DNA from: Octopus vulgaris
Lineage: Eukaryota
Length of the DNA stretch: 64,000 bases
Direction of reading: 5' to 3'
Assembly (NCBI GenBank): GCA_951406725.2
Contig: OX597830.1
Coordinates: 40,238,001-40,302,000 of the forward strand
A program made the position numbers and the translations under genes. The notes beneath the pieces were generated by a model. The model ran no database searches and was not told where the DNA came from. It saw only the letters and a list, made by a program, of their open reading frames with translations. This document shows positions 2,436 through 63,863 of this stretch, piece by piece; position 1 is the first letter of the stretch, and each line of letters starts with the position of its first letter.

Positions 2436-3809
2436 TGGTGACAAGAAATATTCTTACAATTAAGAATGCAGCCTGGGCATAGTATTTAATAATTCTTCTC
2501 AAGGTTCTATGTGAAGCCAAATTTTGACCAGAGGGTATCTGTTCTCTCTTTTTTGCATGTGTGTGTGTAGAAGGAAGTGGGGTCTTTTAGCTAGAAAAGG
2601 AGTTGGAACAGTAACCATGTCCTTTGTAAGTTTTCACAGATTGCTACCATTGATGTGGCTGAAGATCAACTTGAACTTCTGTATGTCAACATTTGCAGAG
2701 ATGGGATTCCAGAAGATTGCTGCTTTAAGGTGGAAAGATCGAGTGAAGTGTTTAGTACAAAATCTGCAAAGTAAGGAAGACACAGTAGGAGTGATGAAAG
2801 AAAGAGAAATGAGTGCACTAAATGGATCTGGATTCAGGTGGACACTACAGAGATTGCAGTTTCAGAGTGTAAATAGAAAAAGAAAATTATAGAAGGAGTA
2901 AAAAGATACTGAAAATGAGCCAACAGCATCAACCTACAAAATTTAAACATAAAATTAAACAAACAGTAATGTTACACAAATCAGCAAGTAATTTCAAGAA
3001 GATTTCTTGGGTGAAGGGAACCACTAAGTCAGGGACGAGGACTTTTTTAACCAATAACCGCAAAATATATTTATTTACGCTGACATTACTCCCTTGATTT
3101 GAAAGGAAGAAAATCATAGATTCTTTGAACTCAGAAGGTTTATTGTATCAATTTTCACGTCCATTACATTGGACAGATGCAGTGTTGCCAGAAGAAAAAA
3201 TGTCTGTTGGAACAAGGAACACATTTTTTTATATAATTTTGCTTATGTCTAATGAGTCCTCATTAACCCCAAGAATTACATTTTTAACCCACTTGGTGTA
3301 ATTTACACCAGTTCACTGACCCCTTGTCTAAGTGGTTGACTGACCTGTTAGAAATAGCAGCAAGATCTTCCTCAAATCATGCACTACTACTTTTCGAAAA
3401 AAAAAGAAAAGGATACATTTATATTTTATATCACAATTGGAGAACAATAGTGTCATTGGTTACATATTCCCAATAGGCCAATCACTGGCTCATTGCATTT
3501 CTGATACTGAGAGTGACAAGGGAGTGTCTGTAATTCACTGCAGAACAAATATCTCAGGGGACTTTGTAGGTTACGCACTAGTTTTTCAATTTTGAAGGCC
3601 AATGCTTGTCTCCTTTACTAGCAAAAGATATGTATACACACGCACATATACAGACCTACATCATACACATTTCTGCACAGTTTCTTGCAACCAAAGTTCC
3701 ACTTGAAAGAGAGAATTGTTCAACCTGTGGCTATGATAAAAGGCACTTTACTTGCCAATGAAACCATGCTGTAGGATTGATCCCAGAACCACATGGTTGT
3801 AATCCCTTC

Positions 3810-4016
3810 TACTATAAGCACAGGGTCTGAAATCTTGTGGGAGTGGCTAGTTGATTACATCACCCCCCAATGCACAAGTGGTACTTATTTCATTGACCCC
3901 CCAAAAAGGATGAAAGACAAAGTTGACCTGAAGTGGAATTTGAACTCAGGGATGTGAAGACAGATAAAACGCTCTTCAGCATTTTGTCTGGCTTGCAGAT
4001 GATTCAGCCAGCTCAC
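3810..4016 (-). mobile_element. SINE family A, decayed
   Basis: GGTACTTATTTCATTGACCCC...AAAGGATGAAAGACAAAGTTGACC...GGAATTTGAACTCAG. Confidence 0.7.
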
Positions 4017-5443: not shown

Positions 5444-5493
<50 letters not shown>

Positions 5494-6113
5494 GCAAGCA
5501 AGCAGAATCATTAGCACATTGAACAAAATAGTTAGCAGCACTTCTGGTTCTTTACATTCTGAGTTCAAATTCTGCCGAGGTTGACTTTGCTCTTCATCCT
5601 TTCAGAGTTGATAAAATAATTATCAGTTGAGTACTGGGGTCAATGAACTGAAATGCCCCCTTCCCTGAAAATTGCTGGCCTTGTACCAAAAGTAGAAAGA
5701 AGAGAGATGGATAGATGGATATATGCATACATACACACACACACACAGACAGACATACATACAGACAGATAGATATACACATGCATACATATACACACAC
5801 AACCAAATAGGCTTCAGCACAGCTTTCATCAACCAAATTTCACTCATAAGGCATTGGCCAGCCCAAGACTAGATTATAATATAAAAGAAACTTGTCTAAG
5901 GTGTCAAACCATGGAACTGAACCCAAAACGCAATGGTTGCAAAGCAAACTTCTTAAACTCAAAGGACAAGACTACAAAATCTTATTTGTTTATAAATTGT
6001 ACAGAATAAGTAGATCACAGCATTCATCCCTTTCTTTAATATCCATTTTCTCAAGATTGCATAGAATTTGTCTTTTCAAGATTTCTTATGACATGTTAAT
6101 TATATTTATTTAA

Positions 6114-16340: not shown

Positions 16341-18497
16341 TTGCTTTGATACTTTGATAGGTTTCAGCCAGTATTGACCTAGGCCATGTCTAATTTAATA
16401 GCATCAATAATAGAGAGTTATTGTTTATGGAATCATATCCAGGTGAAAGAGGTTTATCCAGGATTTCTTGAAAGAATTTGTCCAAAGACTTCTTGAACTT
16501 TATGGGGTCTGTTTCTGCTCTAATCTGTTTTGGTGTACTATTAAAGAGAGGGGCCAATTGAAGTGAAATAATTGTGCCATATTATGAGATGCGAGTGTGA
16601 TTTATGTTGTGGACGGATAGCATGGGGCCCAAGTCTTGAATGTATCTTAAAAGTGATGCCAACATCATTTGGACAATGCTGATGGAATATTTTCCACATC
16701 ATGCAGATGAAGTAATGCTCACAGCAGCATTGGAGAGAGTAAAGTTTAAGCTTTTCTAGTCAACCCTAATAGTCAAGGCCTGTCATGCCATCTATCTTGT
16801 TTTTAATTGGCCTTTGAGGTGCTTCAACTTTCATGATACTTTGTTTCATGTGGCAAGACCACAGTGGACAACAGCATTCAAGGTGGGGGTCAGGCAAAAG
16901 TGGGGAAGATAAGGATAATGGTGTGGATATCCCTCAACTAGAAATTTCTGAGAATCCAGGAACACATTTTGCAGGCCATGTCAGTAATCTCATTGATATA
17001 GATGATGAAAAGAAGTGGGCCCAACACAGTACCTTTGGAATGCCACTACTGACTTTGGCTGGGCTTGCTATTACTACTTCGACTACAACATGTTGGGTTC
17101 TGTCTGTCAGGAAACAATCCATTGTAGTAACTTTCCAGAGACACCAATATCAGATAGTTTTTTCAAGAGAATATTAAGATCAACCCTGTCAAAGGCCTTG
17201 CTGAAATTAAGGTAGATGACATTGGTGTTGGAGCCCTCTCCTAAAACTCTCAAAATGTCATCAAAGTAATGCAGGAGCTGCGTTGGGCAATTCCTTCTGT
17301 TACAGAACACATGTTGGCTGGGGTTCAGCATCTGTTGTTTTCAAGAAAGTGGGTTATTCGTGATCTCACCACCCTCTCAAATACTTTGATGATATGAGAA
17401 GTGAGTGAGATTAGACAGTAGTTTACTGCAAGGGACTTGTTTCCCTTTTTGAAAACTGGAACAGAAATTTTTCTGGAATATAACCAGCATCCAGTGAGCT
17501 CCTCCACAGATTAGCAAGAGGAGATGCAAGTTGGTGTCGACACACTTTCAGGACACAAGCAAGGAACCTATCAGGGCCTATTGCTGAATTATGATTAATT
17601 TTGTTTATTGCCACTAAGACATCAGAGGCACCAAACACTATGTCCAATATAGTGTGTTGAGGATTAACATCACCGATACAGCCCAGATCAGCCATATCAG
17701 GATTGCTGAAAACAGAGCAGTATTGTTTCTGCAGAATCTCACTTGTGGTTTTGGCATTATCTTAGAGAGTGCCATTTTCATCAATTAGAGGGACAACAGA
17801 GGAGACAGTGACCTTGTGTTTTTTTTCAATGGCCCATTTCTCCTCAACTGTTTTTGGTTATTGGTGAAGGTCTTCATGTATTGTTGGAAATTATATTTTT
17901 TCTGATTAGAGCAGGGTGATAGCCGTGGAATATGTGTAGCTGTTGGCAGTATTTTAGTTTGTTAATTATTTTACTTGTTCTTTTTATTTTTCTGATAATA
18001 GTTTTTCTGTTTTGGGGAAATCTGCACTTAGCTTTGTTCACAGTTCTTGGTGGGATGTGTTTGTGACAGTGTCTACAAAGATCTGCCAAGATATTTTGAT
18101 GCTGGAGGAGATGTGTGCATGTGTGAAAGACCAGTCAATATGTGATAGCTCATTCATGATTGCATCTCAGTCGACATTATAGAGATCCATGTTACCAAAT
18201 GGGTGGGCTGGAGAGAGGTCACTAGGGTTAGCTTTCGGCTGGTGGAACCTCAGGTTACAGAGAACCATGTCATATGGTGAAAGAAGGGTTTTTTCCACTG
18301 AAATATTGTGTATTGTGTTAATGTGGTTACTAAACACTAGGTCTAAAATGTTCAGATATCTTTTAGGTGCAAAGACAAATTGGGACAAAAAAAACTCATT
18401 CATAAAGTCGAGAAGTGACTCTACTGCTTTTTTGTCAGCAGTTGAGGTGGGAGTGCTTGGTTTCAAACTGTTTGTAGACCAATCAACACAGGGTAGA
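16337..18497 (-). mobile_element. decayed CR1-group LINE ORF2 (end of endonuclease plus reverse transcriptase), 5'-truncated and frameshifted
   Basis: Minus-strand peptides LPCVDW..FAPKRYLNILDLVFSN (endonuclease), GPDRFLACVLK..LASPL, NYCLISLTSHIIKVFER, SQHVF..YLNFSKAFDRVD, SGIPQGTVLGPLLF-like and C-terminal FKKSLDKFF; multiple stops and frameshifts. Confidence 0.9.
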
Positions 18498-18529
18498 TAT
18501 ATATTTGTGTGTGTATGTGTGTATATATA

Positions 18530-18735
18530 TATAAAGTTAATCCAAACAAGAAAGCACAAAAAAAACACAACAACGCGAAGACGTGGAACAAATATAGTAT
18601 TATTGGACGCTCAGGAAAGAAGGAAAGAAGGAGGGTTTAACGTTTTGAGCGGAGCTCTTCGTCGGAAACATAGGAGAAGGAAAGATCCAGAGAAGGGAAG
18701 ACAGAGGAAAAAAAATCGCCAACAGTACACACGAG
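18530..18735 (-). mobile_element. short PLE-derived (pLTR-like) repeat with hammerhead-like core at 18635-18669
   Basis: Minus strand GTTT-CCGACGA-AGAGC-TCC-GCTC-AAAA-CGTT-AAAC; homologous to 29312-29485 and 48755-48910. Confidence 0.5.
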
Positions 18736-36223: not shown

Positions 36224-36650
36224 CATAGAGAGAGAGAGACATCTATACTCACACACACATATATATACACACAATCGCATATATATATGTATATATAGAC
36301 ATATATACACACATATATGTACATACATACAATCGTGCGCGCACATATATGTATATATATACACAAATACACACAAACATATATATGTACGCACAATCGC
36401 ACACATATATGTATATATATATATAAACATATAGACATATACACACACATATATATATACGTGCACACATACACACAAATATGTATATACAGACATATAT
36501 ACACACACATATATATATGTACACACAATCGCACACATATGTGTATATATAGAGAGAGAGACATATACACACACACACATATATATATACGTGCACACAT
36601 ACACACAAATATGTATATATAGACATACATATACACACACACGCATACAT
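36155..36650. repeat. degenerate (TA/CA) satellite with higher-order duplications
   Basis: ACAATCG recurs 4 times; ATATATACGTGCACACATACACACAAATATGTATATA occurs twice. Confidence 0.8.
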
Positions 36651-37012: not shown

Positions 37013-37321
37013 GTGGTAGTGGTAGTGGTGATGGTGGTGGTGGTGGTGATGGTCGTCGTCGTGGTGGAGTGGAAGTGATGTTGATGATGATGATGATGAT
37101 GGTAGCGATGATGGTGGCGGTGGGGATGATGGTGGTTGTGGTGGAAGTGATGAAGATGATGATGATGATGATGATGGTAGCGATGATGGTGGTAGTGATG
37201 GTGGCGGTGGGGATGATGGTGGTCGTGGTGGAAGTGATGAAGATGATGATGATGATGATGGTAGCGATGATGGTGGTAGTGGTGATGGTGGCGGTGGGGA
37301 TGATGGTGGTCGTGGTGGAAG

Positions 37322-37352
<31 letters not shown>

Positions 37353-37615
37353 AGCGATTATGGTGTTATTGGTGATGGTGGCGGTGGGGATGATGGTGGT
37401 CGTGGTGGAAGTGATGAAGATGATGATGACGGTAGCGATGGTAGTGGTAGTGGTGGTGGTGGTGGAGCTTGTGGTAGAGTTGATGATAGTGATGGTGATG
37501 ATGATATTGATGGTGGTGAAAGTAATGATAATGACAGTAGTGATGATGATGATGATGGCGGTGGTAGTGGTGGTGGTGGTGGTGGCCGAGATGATAGAAA
37601 TGGTTAGTGGTACTT
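37013..37615. repeat. (GAT/GGT) trinucleotide minisatellite with a higher-order unit
   Basis: GTGGAAGTGATG...(GAT)n GTAGCGAT...GTGGCGGTGGGGATGATGGTGGT.GTG repeated 4-5 times. Confidence 0.9.
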
Positions 37616-41102: not shown

Positions 41103-41279
41103 AAGGCGGCAAGCTGGCAGAAGCGGTAGCACGCTGGGCAAAATTCTTAGCGGTATTTCATCTGCTGCTACGTTCTAAGTTCAAATTCCGCTGAGGTCAA
41201 CTTTGCCTTTCATCCTTTCGGGGTTGATTAAATGTCCTTGTTTGTCCCCTCTGTGTGGCCCCTTGTGGGCAGTGAAGAA
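41103..41279 (+). mobile_element. SINE family A inserted into a family B head, 16-bp TSD
   Basis: ATAAGATGTTTGCATC at 41087-41102 and 41280-41295; the host family B copy spans about 41070-41640. Confidence 0.85.
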
Positions 41280-42026
41280 ATAAGATGTTTGCATCCAAAC
41301 CACACATACTTTTGGATTCAGTCCCACTGCATGGCACTATAGCATCAAGTTGACCAAATCCTTGTGAGTGGATTTGGTAGATGTAAACTGAAAGAAGCCT
41401 GGATATATCTATGAGTATGTGTCTTTGTATTTGTGTTAGTCCCCCACCCCTGTTGGACAACTGGTGTTGGTTTTTTTACATCTTTATAGCTTTAAGGTTC
41501 AGCCAAAGAAACTAATGGAATAGGTAACTGAGCTTTAAAAAAATATAAGTATCAGAGGCAATCTGTTTGACTAAAACCTTTCAAGGTGGTGCCCCAGCTT
41601 GGCTGCAGTCCAATGACTGAAACAAGTAAAAGATAAAAGAAGCTTGAATGTCTTGGATCGGTCTTCTCCAACACAGCATCCTGCCACTTGTTGCATCATT
41701 TATAATTCTATATATGCAATTAGGGTTTATTAATGAATTGAAGCATTGCACAAATTTAGTGTTGTTTAAAAGTTGGAAGCCATTCCTATGACCAACCACT
41801 TCACAATATGAACTGGGAGTGTTTTATGTTGCCGCCAGCACTAAAGAGATCTGTCAGGATTAGAGTTTCCTCTCTACTGTATCGGGTTTTATTCAGAGTT
41901 ATGGCTCTCCTAGAGAGGCTGGCTTCATTGCAGCTTGCAGAAGTCTACACCTATCCTGTATATACTTTTGATCAACTGACAGCTTCAGAAATCAACCAAA
42001 TCCAATATACCCACATACATACATAC

Positions 42027-43754: not shown

Positions 43755-44204
43755 TAAGAAGGTGAGCTGGCAGAACCATTAATGCATAGGGCCAAATGCT
43801 CAATGGTACTTCTTCCAGGTTTACAATCTGAATACAAACTATGCTGAGTTGTGTGCTTTTGAAAGACTAACACATGTCTTCCACTTGAAATCATTATATT
43901 TCTTCATTTTGGTGCAGCTGTCATTGACATAGGAACGAGAAAACGACAAATGAGGACTGCATCCTCATTTCTTTTAACACAATTCACATCAAGAATACAT
44001 CATTGTGCCACCCCTAAACACTGATCAGTACACAGCTAGAACCCTTGCAGTCACTCCAAATACTAGGCCTCACCTTCATACAGGACCTCTCCTAGCAAAA
44101 GCACATCCTTAACATAGCTAGAGCTGCATCCTAGAGACCAGCCCTACGCTTTAGGGCCAGGGCATATTTCATCCCCAATAACTGCTGGTATTCTACAAAG
44201 GTCA

Positions 44205-45165
44205 AGGCGGGATGGCAGAAACGTTAGCACACCGGGCGAAATGCTTAGCGGTATTTCGTCTGCCGAACTGTCTGAGTTCAAATTCCGGCAAGGTCGACTT
44301 TGCCTTTCATCCTTTCGGGGTCGATTAAATAAGTACCAGTTACGCACTGGGGTCGATATAATCGATTTAATCCATTTGTCTGTCCTTGTTTGTCCTCTCT
44401 GTGTTTAGCCCCTTGTGGGTAGTAAAGAAATAGGTATTTCGTCTGCCGAACTGTCTGAGTTAAAATTCTGGCGAGGTCGACTTTGCCTTTCATCCTTTCG
44501 GGGTCGATCAAATAAGTACCAGTTACGCACTGGGGTCGATATAATCGACTTAATCCGTTTGTCTGTCCTTGTTTGTCCCTTCAGTTTTTAGCCCCTTGTG
44601 GGTAGTAAAGAAATAGGTCTTTCGTCTGCCGAACTGTCTGAGTTCAAATTCCGGCGAGGTCAACTTTGCCTTTCATCCTTTCGGGGTCGATTAAATAAGT
44701 ACTAGTTACGCACTGGGGTCGATATAATCGACTTAATCCATTTGTCTGTCCTTGTTTGTCCTCTCTGTGTTTATCCCCTTGTGGGTAGTAAAGAATTAGG
44801 TATTTCGTCTGCCGAACTGTCTGAGTTCAAATTCCGGCGAGGTCGACTTTGCCTTTCATCCTTTCGGGGTCGATTATAAGTACTAGTTACGCACTGGGGT
44901 CGATATAATTGACTTAATCCGTTTGTCTGTCCTTGTTTGTCCTCTCTGTGTTTAGCCCCTTGTGAGTAGTAAAGAAATAGGTCTTTCGTCTGCCGAACTG
45001 TCTGAGTTCAAATTCCCACGAGGACGACTTTGCCTTTCATCCTTTTGGGGTTGATTAAATAAGTACCAGTTATGCACTGGGGTCGATATAATTGACTTAA
45101 TCCGTTTGTCTGTCCTTGTTTGTCCTCTCTGTGTTTATCCCCTTGTGGGTAGTAAAGAAATAGGT
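44205..45165 (+). mobile_element. multimeric SINE family A: one head plus five tandem ~183-bp bodies
   Basis: Units start at 44251, 44434, 44617, 44800 and 44981; the array is flanked by the direct repeat GGTATTCTACAAAGGTCAAG (44187-44206 and 45163-45182). Confidence 0.9.
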
Positions 45166-45674
45166 ATTCTACAAAGGTCAAGTTAGACACAATATGAAGA
45201 TTTACTTACACATTTAGGAAGCTGCTGCTGCTGATGTACATCTGCAGATGGACCATATCTCTGATTGTTATTACATCAGACACAGACATCTTCCAGCTTC
45301 TGACCCACAAGATTGCTGTTGCTTCTCTCTCTCTCCGCCTTTTCTTTTGTTATTATAAAAGCTTTCATTCTTTGATGCTGGTTTGGCTTGTACCTTTTCC
45401 ACTCAGGTACTCCCAACCTACTCATCATTCCACTTCTCATCACCATTGTCACATCCAGCCACCAGATCAAGACTAACCATTGTAACCAGGCCTTACTTCC
45501 TTCCCCCCCAAAAAATCATCCCTCTGCAATCTTTCATTAGTCATGTCTTCCCTGCAGAGGCTGACTTGCAACACTTTAACACTTTTCTTACCATATTTCT
45601 GTTGAAATACACTCCCTCTGTTTTCTATTTATTCTGAAAATAAGGAAGAATGTTAAAATAATTTTGTCATCATA

Positions 45675-46062
45675 GGCGTAGGAGTGGCTGTGTTGTAAGT
45701 AGCTTGCTTACAAACCACATGGTTCCAGGTTCAGTCCCACTGCGTGACACCTTGAGCAAGTGTCTTCTACTCGGGCCAACCAAAGCCTTGTGAGTGGATT
45801 TGGTAGACAGAAACTGAAAGAAGTCCATCATATATAAGTATATGTGTGTGAGTGTGTGTGTGTGTTTGTGTATCTGTGTTTCTCCCCCCAGCATTGCTTG
45901 ACAACCGATGCTGGTGTGTTTACATCCCCATAACTTAGCAACTCGGCAAAAGAGACCAATAGAATAAGTCCTGGGATCGATTTGCTTGACTAAAGTTGGT
46001 GCTCCAGCATGGCCACAGTCAAATGACTGAAACAAGTAAAAGAGTAAAAAAGAGTAAAGAGT
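45675..46062 (+). mobile_element. SINE family B
   Basis: GGCGTAGGAGTGGCTGTG...AAACAAGTAAAAGAGTAAAAAAGAGT. Confidence 0.85.
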
Positions 46063-47925: not shown

Positions 47926-48034
47926 TATTTAATGTACAAAGAAAGCAAGTGAAGTGACAAAAGATACTAACCTTTTCATTGATCAATATACCATTGATTA
48001 GAAGGTGGAATCTTGCTATTGTCAATTTTCTTTT

Positions 48035-48243
48035 TTACTCTAAGCACAAGGCCTGAAATTTTTGGGGAGGGGGGCGAGTCGATTAGATCAAACCCAGTAT
48101 GCAGCTGGTACCTAATTTATCAACCCCGAAAGGAAGAAAGGCAAAGTCAATTTCTATGGAATTTGAACTCAGAACAAAAAGACAGACAAAATACCACCAA
48201 GTATTTCGCCCGGTGTGCTAACGTTTCAGCCAGCTTGCTACCT
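48035..48243 (-). mobile_element. SINE family A
   Basis: CCCCGAAAGGAAGAAAGGCAAAGTC...GGAATTTGAACTCAGAAC...TGCTAACGTTTCAGCCAGCTTGC. Confidence 0.8.
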
Positions 48244-52807: not shown

Positions 52808-53447
52808 AGACCTTTGGAAATATGCAGTGTGTGAGAAAACCCGGCAAGCCAAGTGAGACCATAACCTGTGGCCTATGCCAGGGGTGTAACCAGCCCACTT
52901 ATGCGTACCTTTCCTACATTGGACACTAAACTCTGCTTGTGAAGACCTGTTGAGGCAAGTGAAATTGAAATCAAATCAAATTCGCAAATTCGACGACTCG
53001 CACCCGTGCCAGTGGAGTGCTAGAAGCACCATCCGAGCATGACCACTGCCAGAACAGCTGACTGGCTTCCATACCAGTGACACCATTCGAGCGTGATCGT
53101 TACCAGCACCACCTTACTGGCACTTGTGCCAGTGGTACATGAAAAACATTCAAGCGAGGTCGTTACCAGTACCACTGGACTGGCTCCTGTGCAGGTGACA
53201 CGTAAAAAACACCACTTTAACGCGGCCGTTGTCAGTACCGCCTGACTGGCCCTCATGCCAGTGTCATGTAAAAGCACCCACTACACTCTCAGAGTGGTTG
53301 GCGTTAGGAAGGGCATCCAGCTGTAGAAACTCTGCCAGATCAGATTAGAGCCTGATGCAGCCATCCGGTTCACCAATCCTTTGTCAAATCGTCCAACCCA
53401 TGCTAGCATGGAAAGCGGACGTTAAACGATGATGATGATGATGATGA
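52808..53447 (+). mobile_element. RTE-type LINE: ORF end, long 3' UTR with ~5 tandem repeats, and (GAT)n tail
   Basis: Translates DLWKYAVCEKTRQAK*; tandem ~55-65-bp units at 52995-53280; canonical tail. Confidence 0.85.
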
Positions 53448-59285: not shown

Positions 59286-59382
59286 ATGATGAAAGGATAC
59301 GCCAGAATTAAAACTTTAAGGCACCCACATCCACCTAATTAGTGACAGTAACAAGTAATGTATATTTACCAACTAATATTAA

Positions 59383-59790
59383 GGCGGCAAGCTGGCAGAA
59401 ACGTTAGCACGCTGGGCGAAATGCTTTGCGATATTTCGTCTGTCTTTACGTTTTGAGTTCAAATTCCACCGAGATCGACTATGCCTTTCATCCTTTCGGG
59501 GTCGATTAAATAAGTACCAGTTACGCACCGGGGTCGATATAATCGACTTAATCCGTTTGTCTGTCCTTGTTTGTCCCTTCTGTTTTTAGCCCCTTGTGAG
59601 TAGTAAAGAAATAGGTATTTCGTCTGTCTTTACGTTCTGAGTTCGAATTCCGTCGAGGTCGACTTTGCCTTTCATCTTTTCAGGGTCGATTGAATAAGTA
59701 CCAGTTACGCACTGGGGTCGATGTAATCGACTTAATCCCTTTGTCTGTCCCCTCTATGTTTAGCCCCTTGTGGGCTATAAAGAAATAAGT
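59383..59790 (+). mobile_element. dimeric SINE family A (one head, two bodies)
   Basis: The second body starts at 59615 via the same AAGAAATAG|GTATTTCGTC junction as in the 44-kb array. Confidence 0.85.
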
Positions 59791-60086
59791 AACAACTAAT
59801 GTATGTGAAATCTTTGGATCTTTTTTTTTCTTTTGACAAAAAAAAAAAAAAAAAAAGAGAACAGAAATTTTCCTGGATTCGATAACATGCACAGCAGTAT
59901 TTGACATGCAGTTTACCTTTTACTTGTTCATGCCATCAGATTGCGGCCATACTGGAGCGCTACCTTGACAGGTTTAGTCAAACAAATTGACCCCGGTACT
60001 TATTTTTAATGTCTGTTATTTATTCCAATGGATCCATTTGCCGAATTACTAATAACAGTTACGGAGACAATATTTGTAAACGAAAA

Positions 60087-60302
60087 GGCGGCGAGCTGGC
60101 AGAAACGTTAGCACGCCGGACGAAATGTTTAGCGGTGGTTCGTCTGTCTTCACGTTCTGAGTTCAAATTCCGCCGAGGTTGACTTTGCTTTTCATCTTTT
60201 CGGGGTCGATAAAATAGGTACCAGTTGCATACTAGGGTCGATCTAATCGACTGTCTCCCTCCCCCAAAATTTCGGGCCTTGTGCTTAAGAGTAGAAAAGA
60301 AT
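60087..60302 (+). mobile_element. SINE family A, alternative tail
   Basis: Intact head and core; tail CCCCCAAAATTTCGGGCCTTGTGC...GTAGAAAAG. Confidence 0.85.
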
Positions 60303-63628: not shown

Positions 63629-63863
63629 TGCGGCGAGCTGGCAGAAACGTTAGCACGCCGGGCGAAATGCTTAGCGGTATTTCGTCTGCGTTACGTTGTG
63701 AGTTCAAATTCCGCCGAGGTCGACTTTGCCTTTCATCCTTTCGGGGTCGATAAATTAAGTACCAGTTACGCACTGGGGTCGATGTAATCGACTTAATACC
63801 TATGTCTGTCCTTGTTTGTCCCCTCTGTGTTTAGCCCCTTGTGGGTAATAAAGAAATAGGTAT
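63629..63863 (+). mobile_element. SINE family A, monomeric reference copy
   Basis: A-box TGGCAGAAACGTTAG, B-box GAGTTCAAATTCC, central GCCTTTCATCCTTTCGGGGTCGATAAATTAAGTACCAG domain, tail GTAATAAAGAAATAGGTAT. Confidence 0.9.

What the first reader, a model, noticed from the sequence alone, without database searches (positions are those of the whole stretch)
44187..45182. Head-plus-five-body SINE concatemer inside one 20-bp target-site duplication
Seen: one Pol III head, then five 181-183-bp units, all bounded by GGTATTCTACAAAGGTCAAG. Each junction fuses the SINE 3' end (AAGAAATAGGTAT) to an internal GGTATTT lying just 3' of the loop of a 10-bp head hairpin (GGCGAAATGC-TTAGCG-GTATTTCGTC). The target site also begins GGTATT. 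Inference: the element's terminal GGTAT matches a site in its own head, so it may multimerise by a built-in route. Candidates are repeated re-priming or template jumping during target-primed reverse transcription, or rolling-circle copying of a circularised body RNA cut at the anticodon-like loop. Either would be a SINE-to-satellite system. Variants shared between non-adjacent units (GTCTTT start and TTTATCCCC in units 3 and 5) suggest later DNA-level duplication or conversion as well.
Basis: partly seen in the sequence, partly recalled or inferred. Interest (0 to 1): 0.8.

Follow-up and report, generated by a model that had tools for sequence, protein, structure and literature searches.

The report
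SINE array from tail-matching-head joins
Five copies of a short jumping gene's body sit behind one promoter head inside a single insertion scar, and the same join recurs 15 kb away between two different subfamilies; likely the element's RNA ends in a few letters that match a site in its own head, so it would prime on itself, and later DNA exchange probably lengthened and mixed the array.

Summary
Real and correctly described: one tRNA-type head, five bodies (183/183/183/181/183 bp) and a 20/20 target-site duplication (TSD) that begins GGTATT. The join is not a one-off. A second locus (59381-59787) has the same tail|GGTATTT join between two different subfamilies inside its own TSD. All 7 tails of one subtype (3 loci) are followed by GGT(A/C)T; the other subtype's 2 tails are not. 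Contigs from four public DNA runs show the tail rejoining the element at a few other recurrent sites (AGAAA, AGGT), each matching a tail end. The array is a mosaic: unit 2 carries a tract shared with the other locus. No ribozyme was found, so a one-circle rolling copy is unsupported. Best reading (0.5): RNA ending GGUAU(U) anneals to GGTATT sites, including its own head, and unequal exchange or conversion then grows and mixes the array. The join is also a minimal Pol III terminator (TATTT, mammalian data), which could feed this loop. SINE arrays inside one TSD are known (blood clam, squamate SINE-derived satellites); a fixed self-priming join was not found in my searches. No genome was held, so there is no genome-wide count.

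The parts
44187..44206 (+). Left target-site duplication, 20 bp (last 3 nt AAG also fit the element's 5' end, so 17-20 bp); begins GGTATT
   Evidence: (D4); family 5' consensus in the loose ends
44204..44249 (+). tRNA-type Pol III head, present once; A-box-like TGGCAGAAACG at 44213-44223 (box consensus recalled)
   Evidence: ARAGORN finds no tRNA
44233..44262 (+). 13-bp head hairpin; the join point 44250 is the first base of its 3' arm
44250..44432 (+). Unit 1 (183 bp), with B-box-like GAGTTCAAATTCC at 44274-44286; every unit keeps a B box and lacks the A box
44263..44270 (+). Rare CCGAACTG block, shared by all five units and by none of the five other copies aligned
   Evidence: laid depth falls about 200-fold here
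44433..44615 (+). Unit 2 (183 bp); 3' tract 44579-44586 (147C, 148T, 154T) matches unit 1 of the 59.4-kb dimer and makes a T5 run at 44585
44616..44798 (+). Unit 3 (183 bp), starts GGTCTTT; shares 4C and 159T with unit 5, and 88T with unit 4
44799..44979 (+). Unit 4 (181 bp, 2-bp deletion)
44980..45162 (+). Unit 5 (183 bp), most diverged (9 substitutions; 6 CpG left vs 9-10 in units 1-4)
45163..45182 (+). Right target-site duplication
59347..59806 (+). Independent head+body+body dimer with the same join (59613|59614), joining two subfamilies, inside a 17-of-19 TSD with 17 extra bases at the 5' junction
63629..63863 (+). Monomer of the same tail subtype, followed by GGTAT; only a 3-6 bp TSD candidate
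41105..41298 (+). Monomer of the other tail subtype (internal deletion), followed by AGATG inside a 17-of-18 TSD that overlaps the tail by 3 nt; contrast case

Best explanation
This is a tRNA-derived SINE present as one head plus five bodies inside one insertion scar; likely the RNA of this subfamily ends in GGUAU(U), would prime reverse transcription by pairing with GGTATT in target DNA, and so would also prime on the GGTATTT at the tip of its own head hairpin, with unequal exchange and conversion probably growing and mixing the array afterwards. Steps: (1) Shown: the target here began GGTATT, and tails of this subtype are followed by GGT(A/C)T wherever seen. (2) Inferred: the extra GGUAU(U) comes from head+body multimers, in which the join places TATTT, a leaky minimal Pol III terminator in mammalian assays, right behind a tail that otherwise has no T4 stop. 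(3) Inferred: when such an RNA primes inside a resident copy's head, or the growing cDNA re-primes there, the homologous 5' join is seamless and gives head+body+body. The 59.4-kb heterodimer fits this. (4) Inferred: the focal array was seeded by retrotransposition as a monomer or short multimer. The shared unit 3/5 variants point to an early two-unit duplication, and unit 2's foreign tract to conversion or a second template.
For: Same join at an independent locus with its own TSD. Its two bodies differ at 20 of 151 sites plus a 10-bp indel, unit 1 is nearer focal units 2 and 4 (11/161, 11/159) than its own neighbour, and both keep 10-11 CpGs. So the difference is inherited and local duplication is excluded there. 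Tail subtype T (T at unit position 171, defined after seeing the data) is followed by GGT(A/C)T in 7 of 7 tails at 3 loci (5 GGTAT, 2 GGTCT); subtype C is followed by AG in 2 of 2. Target GGTATT matches the internal site at 6 of 6 letters (background 3.3e-4). TSDs overlap the tail by 3 nt at the 41.1-kb and 60.1-kb copies, as annealing-primed insertion predicts. In four DNA runs the 3' end goes back to 44217 (2/18/5/7 contigs) and, as 44431>44291, to AGGT (3/4/0/0 contigs); AGAAA, AGGT and GGTAT each occur at one internal site only (AGAAA also once in the tail itself). Units 1, 3, 4 and the 63.6-kb monomer have no T4 run. TATTT terminated 42% and TCTTT 50% in HeLa (PMC8466645, passages). Unit 2's three-site match to the other locus was reached in 0 of 20000 star-model simulations under each of two CpG weightings; 3 shared non-CpG variants among units had p about 0.004-0.03.
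Against: Only 3 subtype-T loci were examined, all in one window. The focal join (44432>44250) is not among the 15 joints shown of 525. My reference has a rare block at 44263-44270, so only 13 letters would align and that join was not measurable; the 44432>44271 row (13/18/10/0 contigs) may stand in for it, but the only between-letters shown for it are different. 44213, 44271 and 44291 are also alignment break points of my reference, and most rows say 'between: not known'. The same TATTT sits in every head, and TGTTT occurs in the body, so these stops must be leaky; octopus Pol III was not tested. The T5 in unit 2 would stop Pol III almost fully, which argues against a whole five-unit transcript if it was already there. 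All five units share a block carried by at most about 0.13% of laid depth, so they are not independent draws from the family. An endonuclease preference for GGTAT would give the same TSD start. The partner LINE was not found.
Confidence: 0.5

Rival explanations
1. All five bodies were written in one target-primed event. The reverse transcriptase stopped or ran off at the hairpin tip (RNA cut there) and jumped to a new RNA 3' end four times, finishing on a full-length RNA.
For: One perfect TSD. The join lies exactly at the hairpin tip. 2 of 3 subtype-T loci in the window are multimers. Template-jump concatemers are made in vitro by L1 ORF2p (PMC10830420, passages). The dimer's two units look similarly young by CpG count.
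Against: It needs four exact jumps. It does not by itself explain the unit 3/5 sharing or unit 2's foreign tract. Unit 5 has lost more CpG than units 1-4 (5/11 vs 6/44, Fisher p=0.03, post hoc). No young headless monomer starting at 44250 was found in the window.
Confidence: 0.2
2. DNA only: a monomer landed at GGTATT, leaving 6-bp direct repeats 183 bp apart; slippage or microhomology-mediated repair duplicated the body, and unequal crossing-over made five.
For: The geometry is present (44250-44255 and 45163-45168). All units share the rare block. Unit 3/5 sharing. TSD identity 20/20 is compatible with equal age (P=0.45 at the 3.9% mean non-CpG divergence). Unequal recombination is what PMC10702118 and PMC11481361 invoke.
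Against: It cannot make the 59.4-kb dimer, which joins two subfamilies and has no terminal GGTAT. It leaves unexplained why the target began GGTATT and why the 63.6-kb monomer also ends GGTAT.
Confidence: 0.17
3. The partner LINE endonuclease prefers GGTAT, so the element self-inserts without any RNA-guided annealing; the rest is as in the best explanation.
For: The left TSD shows GGTATT was target DNA.
Against: Subtype-C copies with the same head and nearly the same tail inserted at AG sites (2 of 2), so the preference follows the RNA subtype, not the family.
Confidence: 0.08
4. Rolling-circle copying of a circular 183-nt body RNA (retrozyme-like).
For: Perfect head-to-tail phase; unit size lies within the 150-450 bp range of metazoan retrozymes (PMC7229834, passages).
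Against: No Rfam family near its gathering score (2 hits, E 3-4). No exact CUGANGA core on either strand, and one loose HDV-descriptor hit without a credible fold. Circular fold within 0.5 sd of shuffles. Units are a mosaic and the second locus is a heterodimer. A circle does not supply the head.
Confidence: 0.03
5. Assembly artefact.
For: No read or contig spanning the array was examined; the one lay used only the left flank, head and unit 1.
Against: The units differ at 25 columns with private changes in each, the TSD brackets the whole, and left flank+TSD+head lie on single contigs in two other organisms' runs.
Confidence: 0.02

Closest known systems
TSD1-(SINE)n-TSD1 tandem SINE arrays of the blood clam Scapharca broughtonii (Martelossi et al. 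2024, PMC11481361; passages)
   Same: Several SINE units head-to-tail inside one TSD, with a complete tRNA head only on the first unit and the same head truncation on the others; a mollusc; arrays of 4-15 units.
   Different: In the clam the inner units also lack the 3' tail and only the last has it, which reads as an internal duplication. Here every unit has the full tail and the join is tail-end to hairpin tip. The paper suggests unequal recombination between TSDs and, in the passages I saw, no self-priming.
SINE-derived satellites (sSat1-3) of squamates (Vassetzky et al. 2023, PMC10702118; parts 1, 3 and 4 of 5 read)
   Same: Tandem repeats of a SINE portion (70-290 nt) with a longer terminal unit reaching the SINE terminus; short loci heterogeneous.
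   Different: Only 3 middle units here (they analysed loci with 4 or more). No long or homogenised array was seen and chromosomal position is unknown. They invoke unequal recombination or insertion at the same locus, and I saw no fixed tail-matching join in the parts read.
Multimeric B2, Dip and Ves SINEs (PMC8466645; passages)
   Same: Head-to-tail SINE multimers of up to eight units; origin (insertion into a tail vs multimeric template) left open.
   Different: Those are full-length units joined at A-tails; here the units are headless and joined at an internal site.
Template-jump concatemers of non-LTR reverse transcriptases (L1 ORF2p, PMC10830420) and annealing-mediated 5' joining of LINE inserts (PMC4760211); passages only
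   Same: Supply the enzymology assumed here: short-primer extension, template jumps, and joining by annealing of internal cDNA to the target end.
   Different: Shown for L1 and zebrafish L2, not for this element; its partner LINE is unidentified.
Metazoan non-LTR retrozymes (Cervera and de la Pena 2020, PMC7229834; passages)
   Same: Short tandem units of 150-450 bp.
   Different: Defined by a type I hammerhead and circular RNA; no hammerhead is found here, and there is a Pol III head.

Membership tests
tRNA-derived SINE (SINEBase definition, PMC3531059) | Short (<1 kb) interspersed repeat, at least 100 copies | tested here: met
   Monomer about 229 bp; 9 heads in the window; 156,556-352,089 contigs laid per run (not a copy number)
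tRNA-derived SINE (SINEBase definition, PMC3531059) | At least 60% identity to a tRNA over 60 nt; A and B boxes | tested here: inconclusive
   A- and B-box-like motifs seen by eye against a recalled consensus; ARAGORN 0 genes; Rfam no tRNA hit; identity to a tRNA not computed
tRNA-derived SINE (SINEBase definition, PMC3531059) | Variable-length TSDs | tested here: met
   20/20, 17/19, 17/18 and 14/16 at four of five full-length copies; only 5/6 at the fifth
tRNA-derived SINE (SINEBase definition, PMC3531059) | 3' region shared with a partner LINE | not testable with these tools
   BLAST of three monomers against the window gave only SINE-like hits; no genome held
Named octopus SINEs (OK, OR1, OR2) or a central-domain superfamily (CORE, Deu/Nin, V, Ceph, Meta) | Match to a published consensus | tested here: inconclusive
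   Motif look-ups found nothing in the supplements searched or in main texts; SINEBase supplements unreadable; a 38-45-bp core is shared at 87-92% with 5 of 5 metagenome loci
TSD1-(SINE)n-TSD1 arrays (PMC11481361) | One TSD around n units; full head on the first unit only | tested here: met
TSD1-(SINE)n-TSD1 arrays (PMC11481361) | Inner units truncated at the 3' tail; full tail on the last unit only | tested here: not met
   All five units end in the full tail
SINE-derived satellite (sSat, PMC10702118) | Tandem unit shorter than the SINE, with an extended terminal unit | tested here: met
SINE-derived satellite (sSat, PMC10702118) | At least four middle monomers (their working threshold) | tested here: not met
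   Five units in all, three middle
SINE-derived satellite (sSat, PMC10702118) | Long homogenised arrays, subtelomeric bias | not testable with these tools
   No genome held
Non-LTR retrozyme (PMC7229834) | Type I hammerhead ribozyme in each unit | tested here: not met
Non-LTR retrozyme (PMC7229834) | Monomeric circular RNA | not testable with these tools
   All 24 runs listed are contigs; no RNA run was laid, and contigs cannot tell a circle from a tandem transcript

The most novel reading that the evidence does not exclude
A self-reinforcing, RNA-guided self-targeting SINE. Once a tail is joined to the TATTT in the head hairpin, the multimer gains a Pol III stop that yields RNAs ending GGUAU(U). 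These RNAs pair with GGTATT targets, including the head of any family member, and so make more multimers with the same join. Each tail subtype would carry its own preferred self-join (GGTAT/AGGT for one, AGAAA for the other), giving a programmed retrotransposition route from dispersed SINE to satellite seed.
Probability: 0.3. Interest if true: 0.72.

Novelty: new variant of a known kind. Interest (0 to 1): 0.5.

Why it matters
How dispersed SINEs give rise to tandem arrays is left open in the papers read: PMC10702118 and PMC11481361 point to unequal recombination, and PMC8466645 could not tell tail insertion from multimeric templates. Here the join is fixed, recurs between different subfamilies and equals the target-site start, so the route can be tested by simple counts in an assembled genome and by RNA 3'-end mapping. 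If the loop is real, a SINE's own 3' read-through would set its target choice and seed satellites. It would also explain why a very abundant cephalopod repeat is hard to annotate as a monomer. If not, this is a tidy cephalopod example of a known array type.

Tried and rejected
No whole genome is held, so the genome-wide join table could not be made. Pattern scans: viral contigs 0 and 0; genome contigs 0 and 0; metagenome contigs 5 loci, which share only a 38-45-bp core and not the element. Ribozyme or structured-RNA reading rejected: Rfam 2 weak hits far below gathering, monomer fold z -0.80, circular fold ordinary. The single lay used 4 of 24 listed runs (X3, X2, X6, X15). It could not measure the focal join, count units in orthologues (contigs end inside the head at 44235 and 44231) or show an empty site. 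The hole in X3 at 44152-44169 proves nothing (80% of the run read). 'Unit 5 is an older resident' is only weakly supported (p=0.03 post hoc) and is undercut by its two shared variants with unit 3. 'First 22 nt are locus-specific' rests on one clustered block and, at the dimer, on the family's common form, so I give it little weight. The sharing of 169A between unit 4 and the dimer is treated as chance. My recalled guess that the core is the Nin domain was not borne out by the Nin rows shown; no superfamily is assigned. A LINE-like ORF at 18167-18610 gave no credible Pfam hit. Earlier-findings look-ups by sequence and place were empty. Literature: nine searches listed no paper on octopus SINE arrays with a fixed internal join. 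Ohshima and Okada 1994 was not read, and PMC4795812 is not held. SINEBase supplements, file 1 of the supplements of PMC4758252 and PMC4824008, and bioRxiv supplements were not seen and may name this family.

Full report
Observation. The described structure is in the sequence. A 20-bp direct repeat at 44187-44206 and 45163-45182 (20/20) encloses one head (44207-44249) and five bodies starting at 44250, 44433, 44616, 44799 and 44980 (183, 183, 183, 181, 183 bp). The bodies differ by 3.3-8.7% (mean 5.6%) at 25 columns, each with private changes, so this is not a duplicated-contig artefact on its face; no reads were laid across the array. The join base is the first base of the 3' arm of a 13-bp head hairpin. 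Two of four joins read GGTCT.

The family. Nine heads and nine tails of this type lie in the window. Four of five full-length copies have 16-20-bp TSDs. In four public DNA runs, 156,556-352,089 contigs each lay on the element (not a copy number). Left flank, left TSD and head lie on one contig in runs of organisms B and C (43900-44235, 7 other letters; 43900-44231, 8), so the insertion is shared with related organisms. The contigs end inside the head and do not give unit number. No genome is held. Four pattern scans of viral and prokaryote collections found nothing. Five metagenome loci share only a 38-45-bp core. I could not tie the family to a published name.

The join recurs. At 59381-59787 a head+body+body element has the same tail|GGTATTTCGTC join, inside its own 17-of-19 TSD that begins AG, not GGTAT. 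Its two bodies differ at 20 of 151 sites beyond position 22 plus a 10-bp indel. Its first body is closer to focal units 2 and 4 (11/161, 11/159) than to its neighbour, and both keep 10-11 CpGs. It therefore joins two subfamilies and cannot be a local duplication. Sorting tails by position 171 (a split made after seeing the data), subtype T is followed by GGT(A/C)T in 7 of 7 cases at 3 loci, and subtype C by AG in 2 of 2. At the focal locus the left TSD shows GGTATT was target DNA, matching the internal site at 6 of 6 letters (background 3.3e-4 per position). The 63.6-kb monomer is followed by GGTAT (6.7e-4).

Joins across the family. One search shows 15 of 525 joints. Those going back from the 3' end are 44432>44213 (18/27/15/1 contigs in X3/X2/X6/X15), >44217 (2/18/5/7), >44271 (13/18/10/0), >44291 (11/12/8/0) and 44431>44291 (3/4/0/0, one shared letter). 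AGAAA (44217), AGGT (44291) and GGTAT (44250) each occur at a single internal site of the monomer, and each resembles a tail end. Limits: most rows say 'between: not known'; 44213, 44271 and 44291 are also break points caused by rare letters in my reference; and the focal join could not be scored because only 13 letters align before the rare block at 44263-44270.

History inside the array. All five units share the 44263-44270 block, absent from five other copies aligned and at most about 0.13% of laid depth in X3 (about 50,000 of 37 million). They are not independent draws from the family. Yet they are not one template copied five times and left alone. Unit 2 matches the dimer's first body at three sites within 8 bp (0 of 20000 simulations under each of two CpG weightings), and three non-CpG variants are shared among units (p about 0.004-0.03). 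Positions 4 and 159 alternate as a two-unit duplication would give. Unit 2's tract creates a T5 run, a near-complete Pol III stop in HeLa, so conversion from the dimer 15 kb away or a second template is more likely than a five-unit transcript carrying it. TSD identity is compatible with equal age (P=0.45). Unit 5 has lost more CpG (p=0.03, post hoc).

Mechanism. Shown: target start equals internal site; subtype-linked following letters; recurrence between subfamilies; mosaicism. Inferred: the subtype's RNA ends GGUAU(U) and primes by pairing with the nicked target. TSD-tail overlaps of 3 nt at two other copies fit annealing-primed insertion. Units 1, 3, 4 and the monomer lack a T4 stop, and the join places TATTT or TCTTT right behind the tail. 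These gave 42% and 50% termination in HeLa (PMC8466645, passages), so multimers would shed exactly such RNAs. The same TATTT sits in every head and mollusc Pol III is untested, so this step is the weakest. An RNA so ended would prime at any GGTATT, including the family's own head; annealing of internal cDNA to the target end (PMC4760211) would give a seamless head+body+body. I put this route, followed by DNA-level growth and mixing, at 0.5. Same-event jumping (enzymology in PMC10830420) is 0.2, DNA-only duplication at the 6-bp repeat 0.17, endonuclease preference 0.08, rolling circle 0.03 and artefact 0.02. The circle has no support: no Rfam family near its gathering score, no hammerhead core, and an ordinary circular fold.

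Comparison. It works like the TSD1-(SINE)n-TSD1 arrays of the blood clam (PMC11481361; abstract and passages) but fails their inner-unit tail truncation. It resembles a short SINE-derived satellite seed (PMC10702118; parts 1, 3, 4 of 5) but is below their four-middle-unit threshold. It is not a retrozyme (PMC7229834; passages). Other papers seen as passages only: PMC13282606 (supplement search), PMC4758252 (supplement rows and part 4 of file 4), PMC4824008, PMC3531059, PMC9599045. Nine searches listed no description of a fixed self-priming join in a SINE; key older octopus papers and several supplements were not seen.

Verdict. Observation confirmed; interpretation partly supported; new variant of a known kind; interest 0.5. 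Most novel reading not excluded: a terminator-fed, RNA-guided self-targeting loop (probability 0.3, interest 0.72).

Noticed in passing
window 59366-59382: The dimer has 17 extra bases between its left TSD and head; they contain CAACTAAT, identical to the right TSD copy (the left copy has a C>G), which suggests templating from the target during 5' joining.
   Followed up: partly
window 60087-60302, 48028-48238, 5493-5701, 3807-4014: A second SINE type shares the head and core but has a different 3' tail; its break from the reference shows as common loose ends at 44340-44365 in all four runs.
   Followed up: partly
run X15 (organism E): Much lower depth over the focal tail relative to the body, and 0 contigs for the 44271 and 44291 joints but 7 for the 44217 joint among rows shown; join classes may be lineage-specific.
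   Followed up: no
L001-L005 (for example L005 1494-1537): A 38-45-bp core of this SINE is shared at 87-92% with five metagenome contigs whose flanks differ; looks like a conserved SINE central domain of other animals; not assigned.
   Followed up: partly
   Followed up: no
window 41105-41282: Family copy with a clean internal deletion of about 51 bp and an intact TSD.
   Followed up: no
window 18167-18610 (-): 147-aa open frame resembling a LINE endonuclease fragment by recall; Pfam gave only a weak unrelated hit.
   Followed up: partly
window 53084-53211: 63-bp two-copy tandem within another repeat-like stretch, with further similar units around it.
   Followed up: no
window 37092-37464 and 36342-36641: Higher-order minisatellites (87-90 bp x 4.2; 132 bp x 2.3) built from microsatellite motifs.
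   Followed up: no
window 45675-45800: Start of a different tRNA-headed repeat, CORE-SINE-like by recall, about 500 bp right of the array; similar letters follow the 41.1-kb copy.
   Followed up: no
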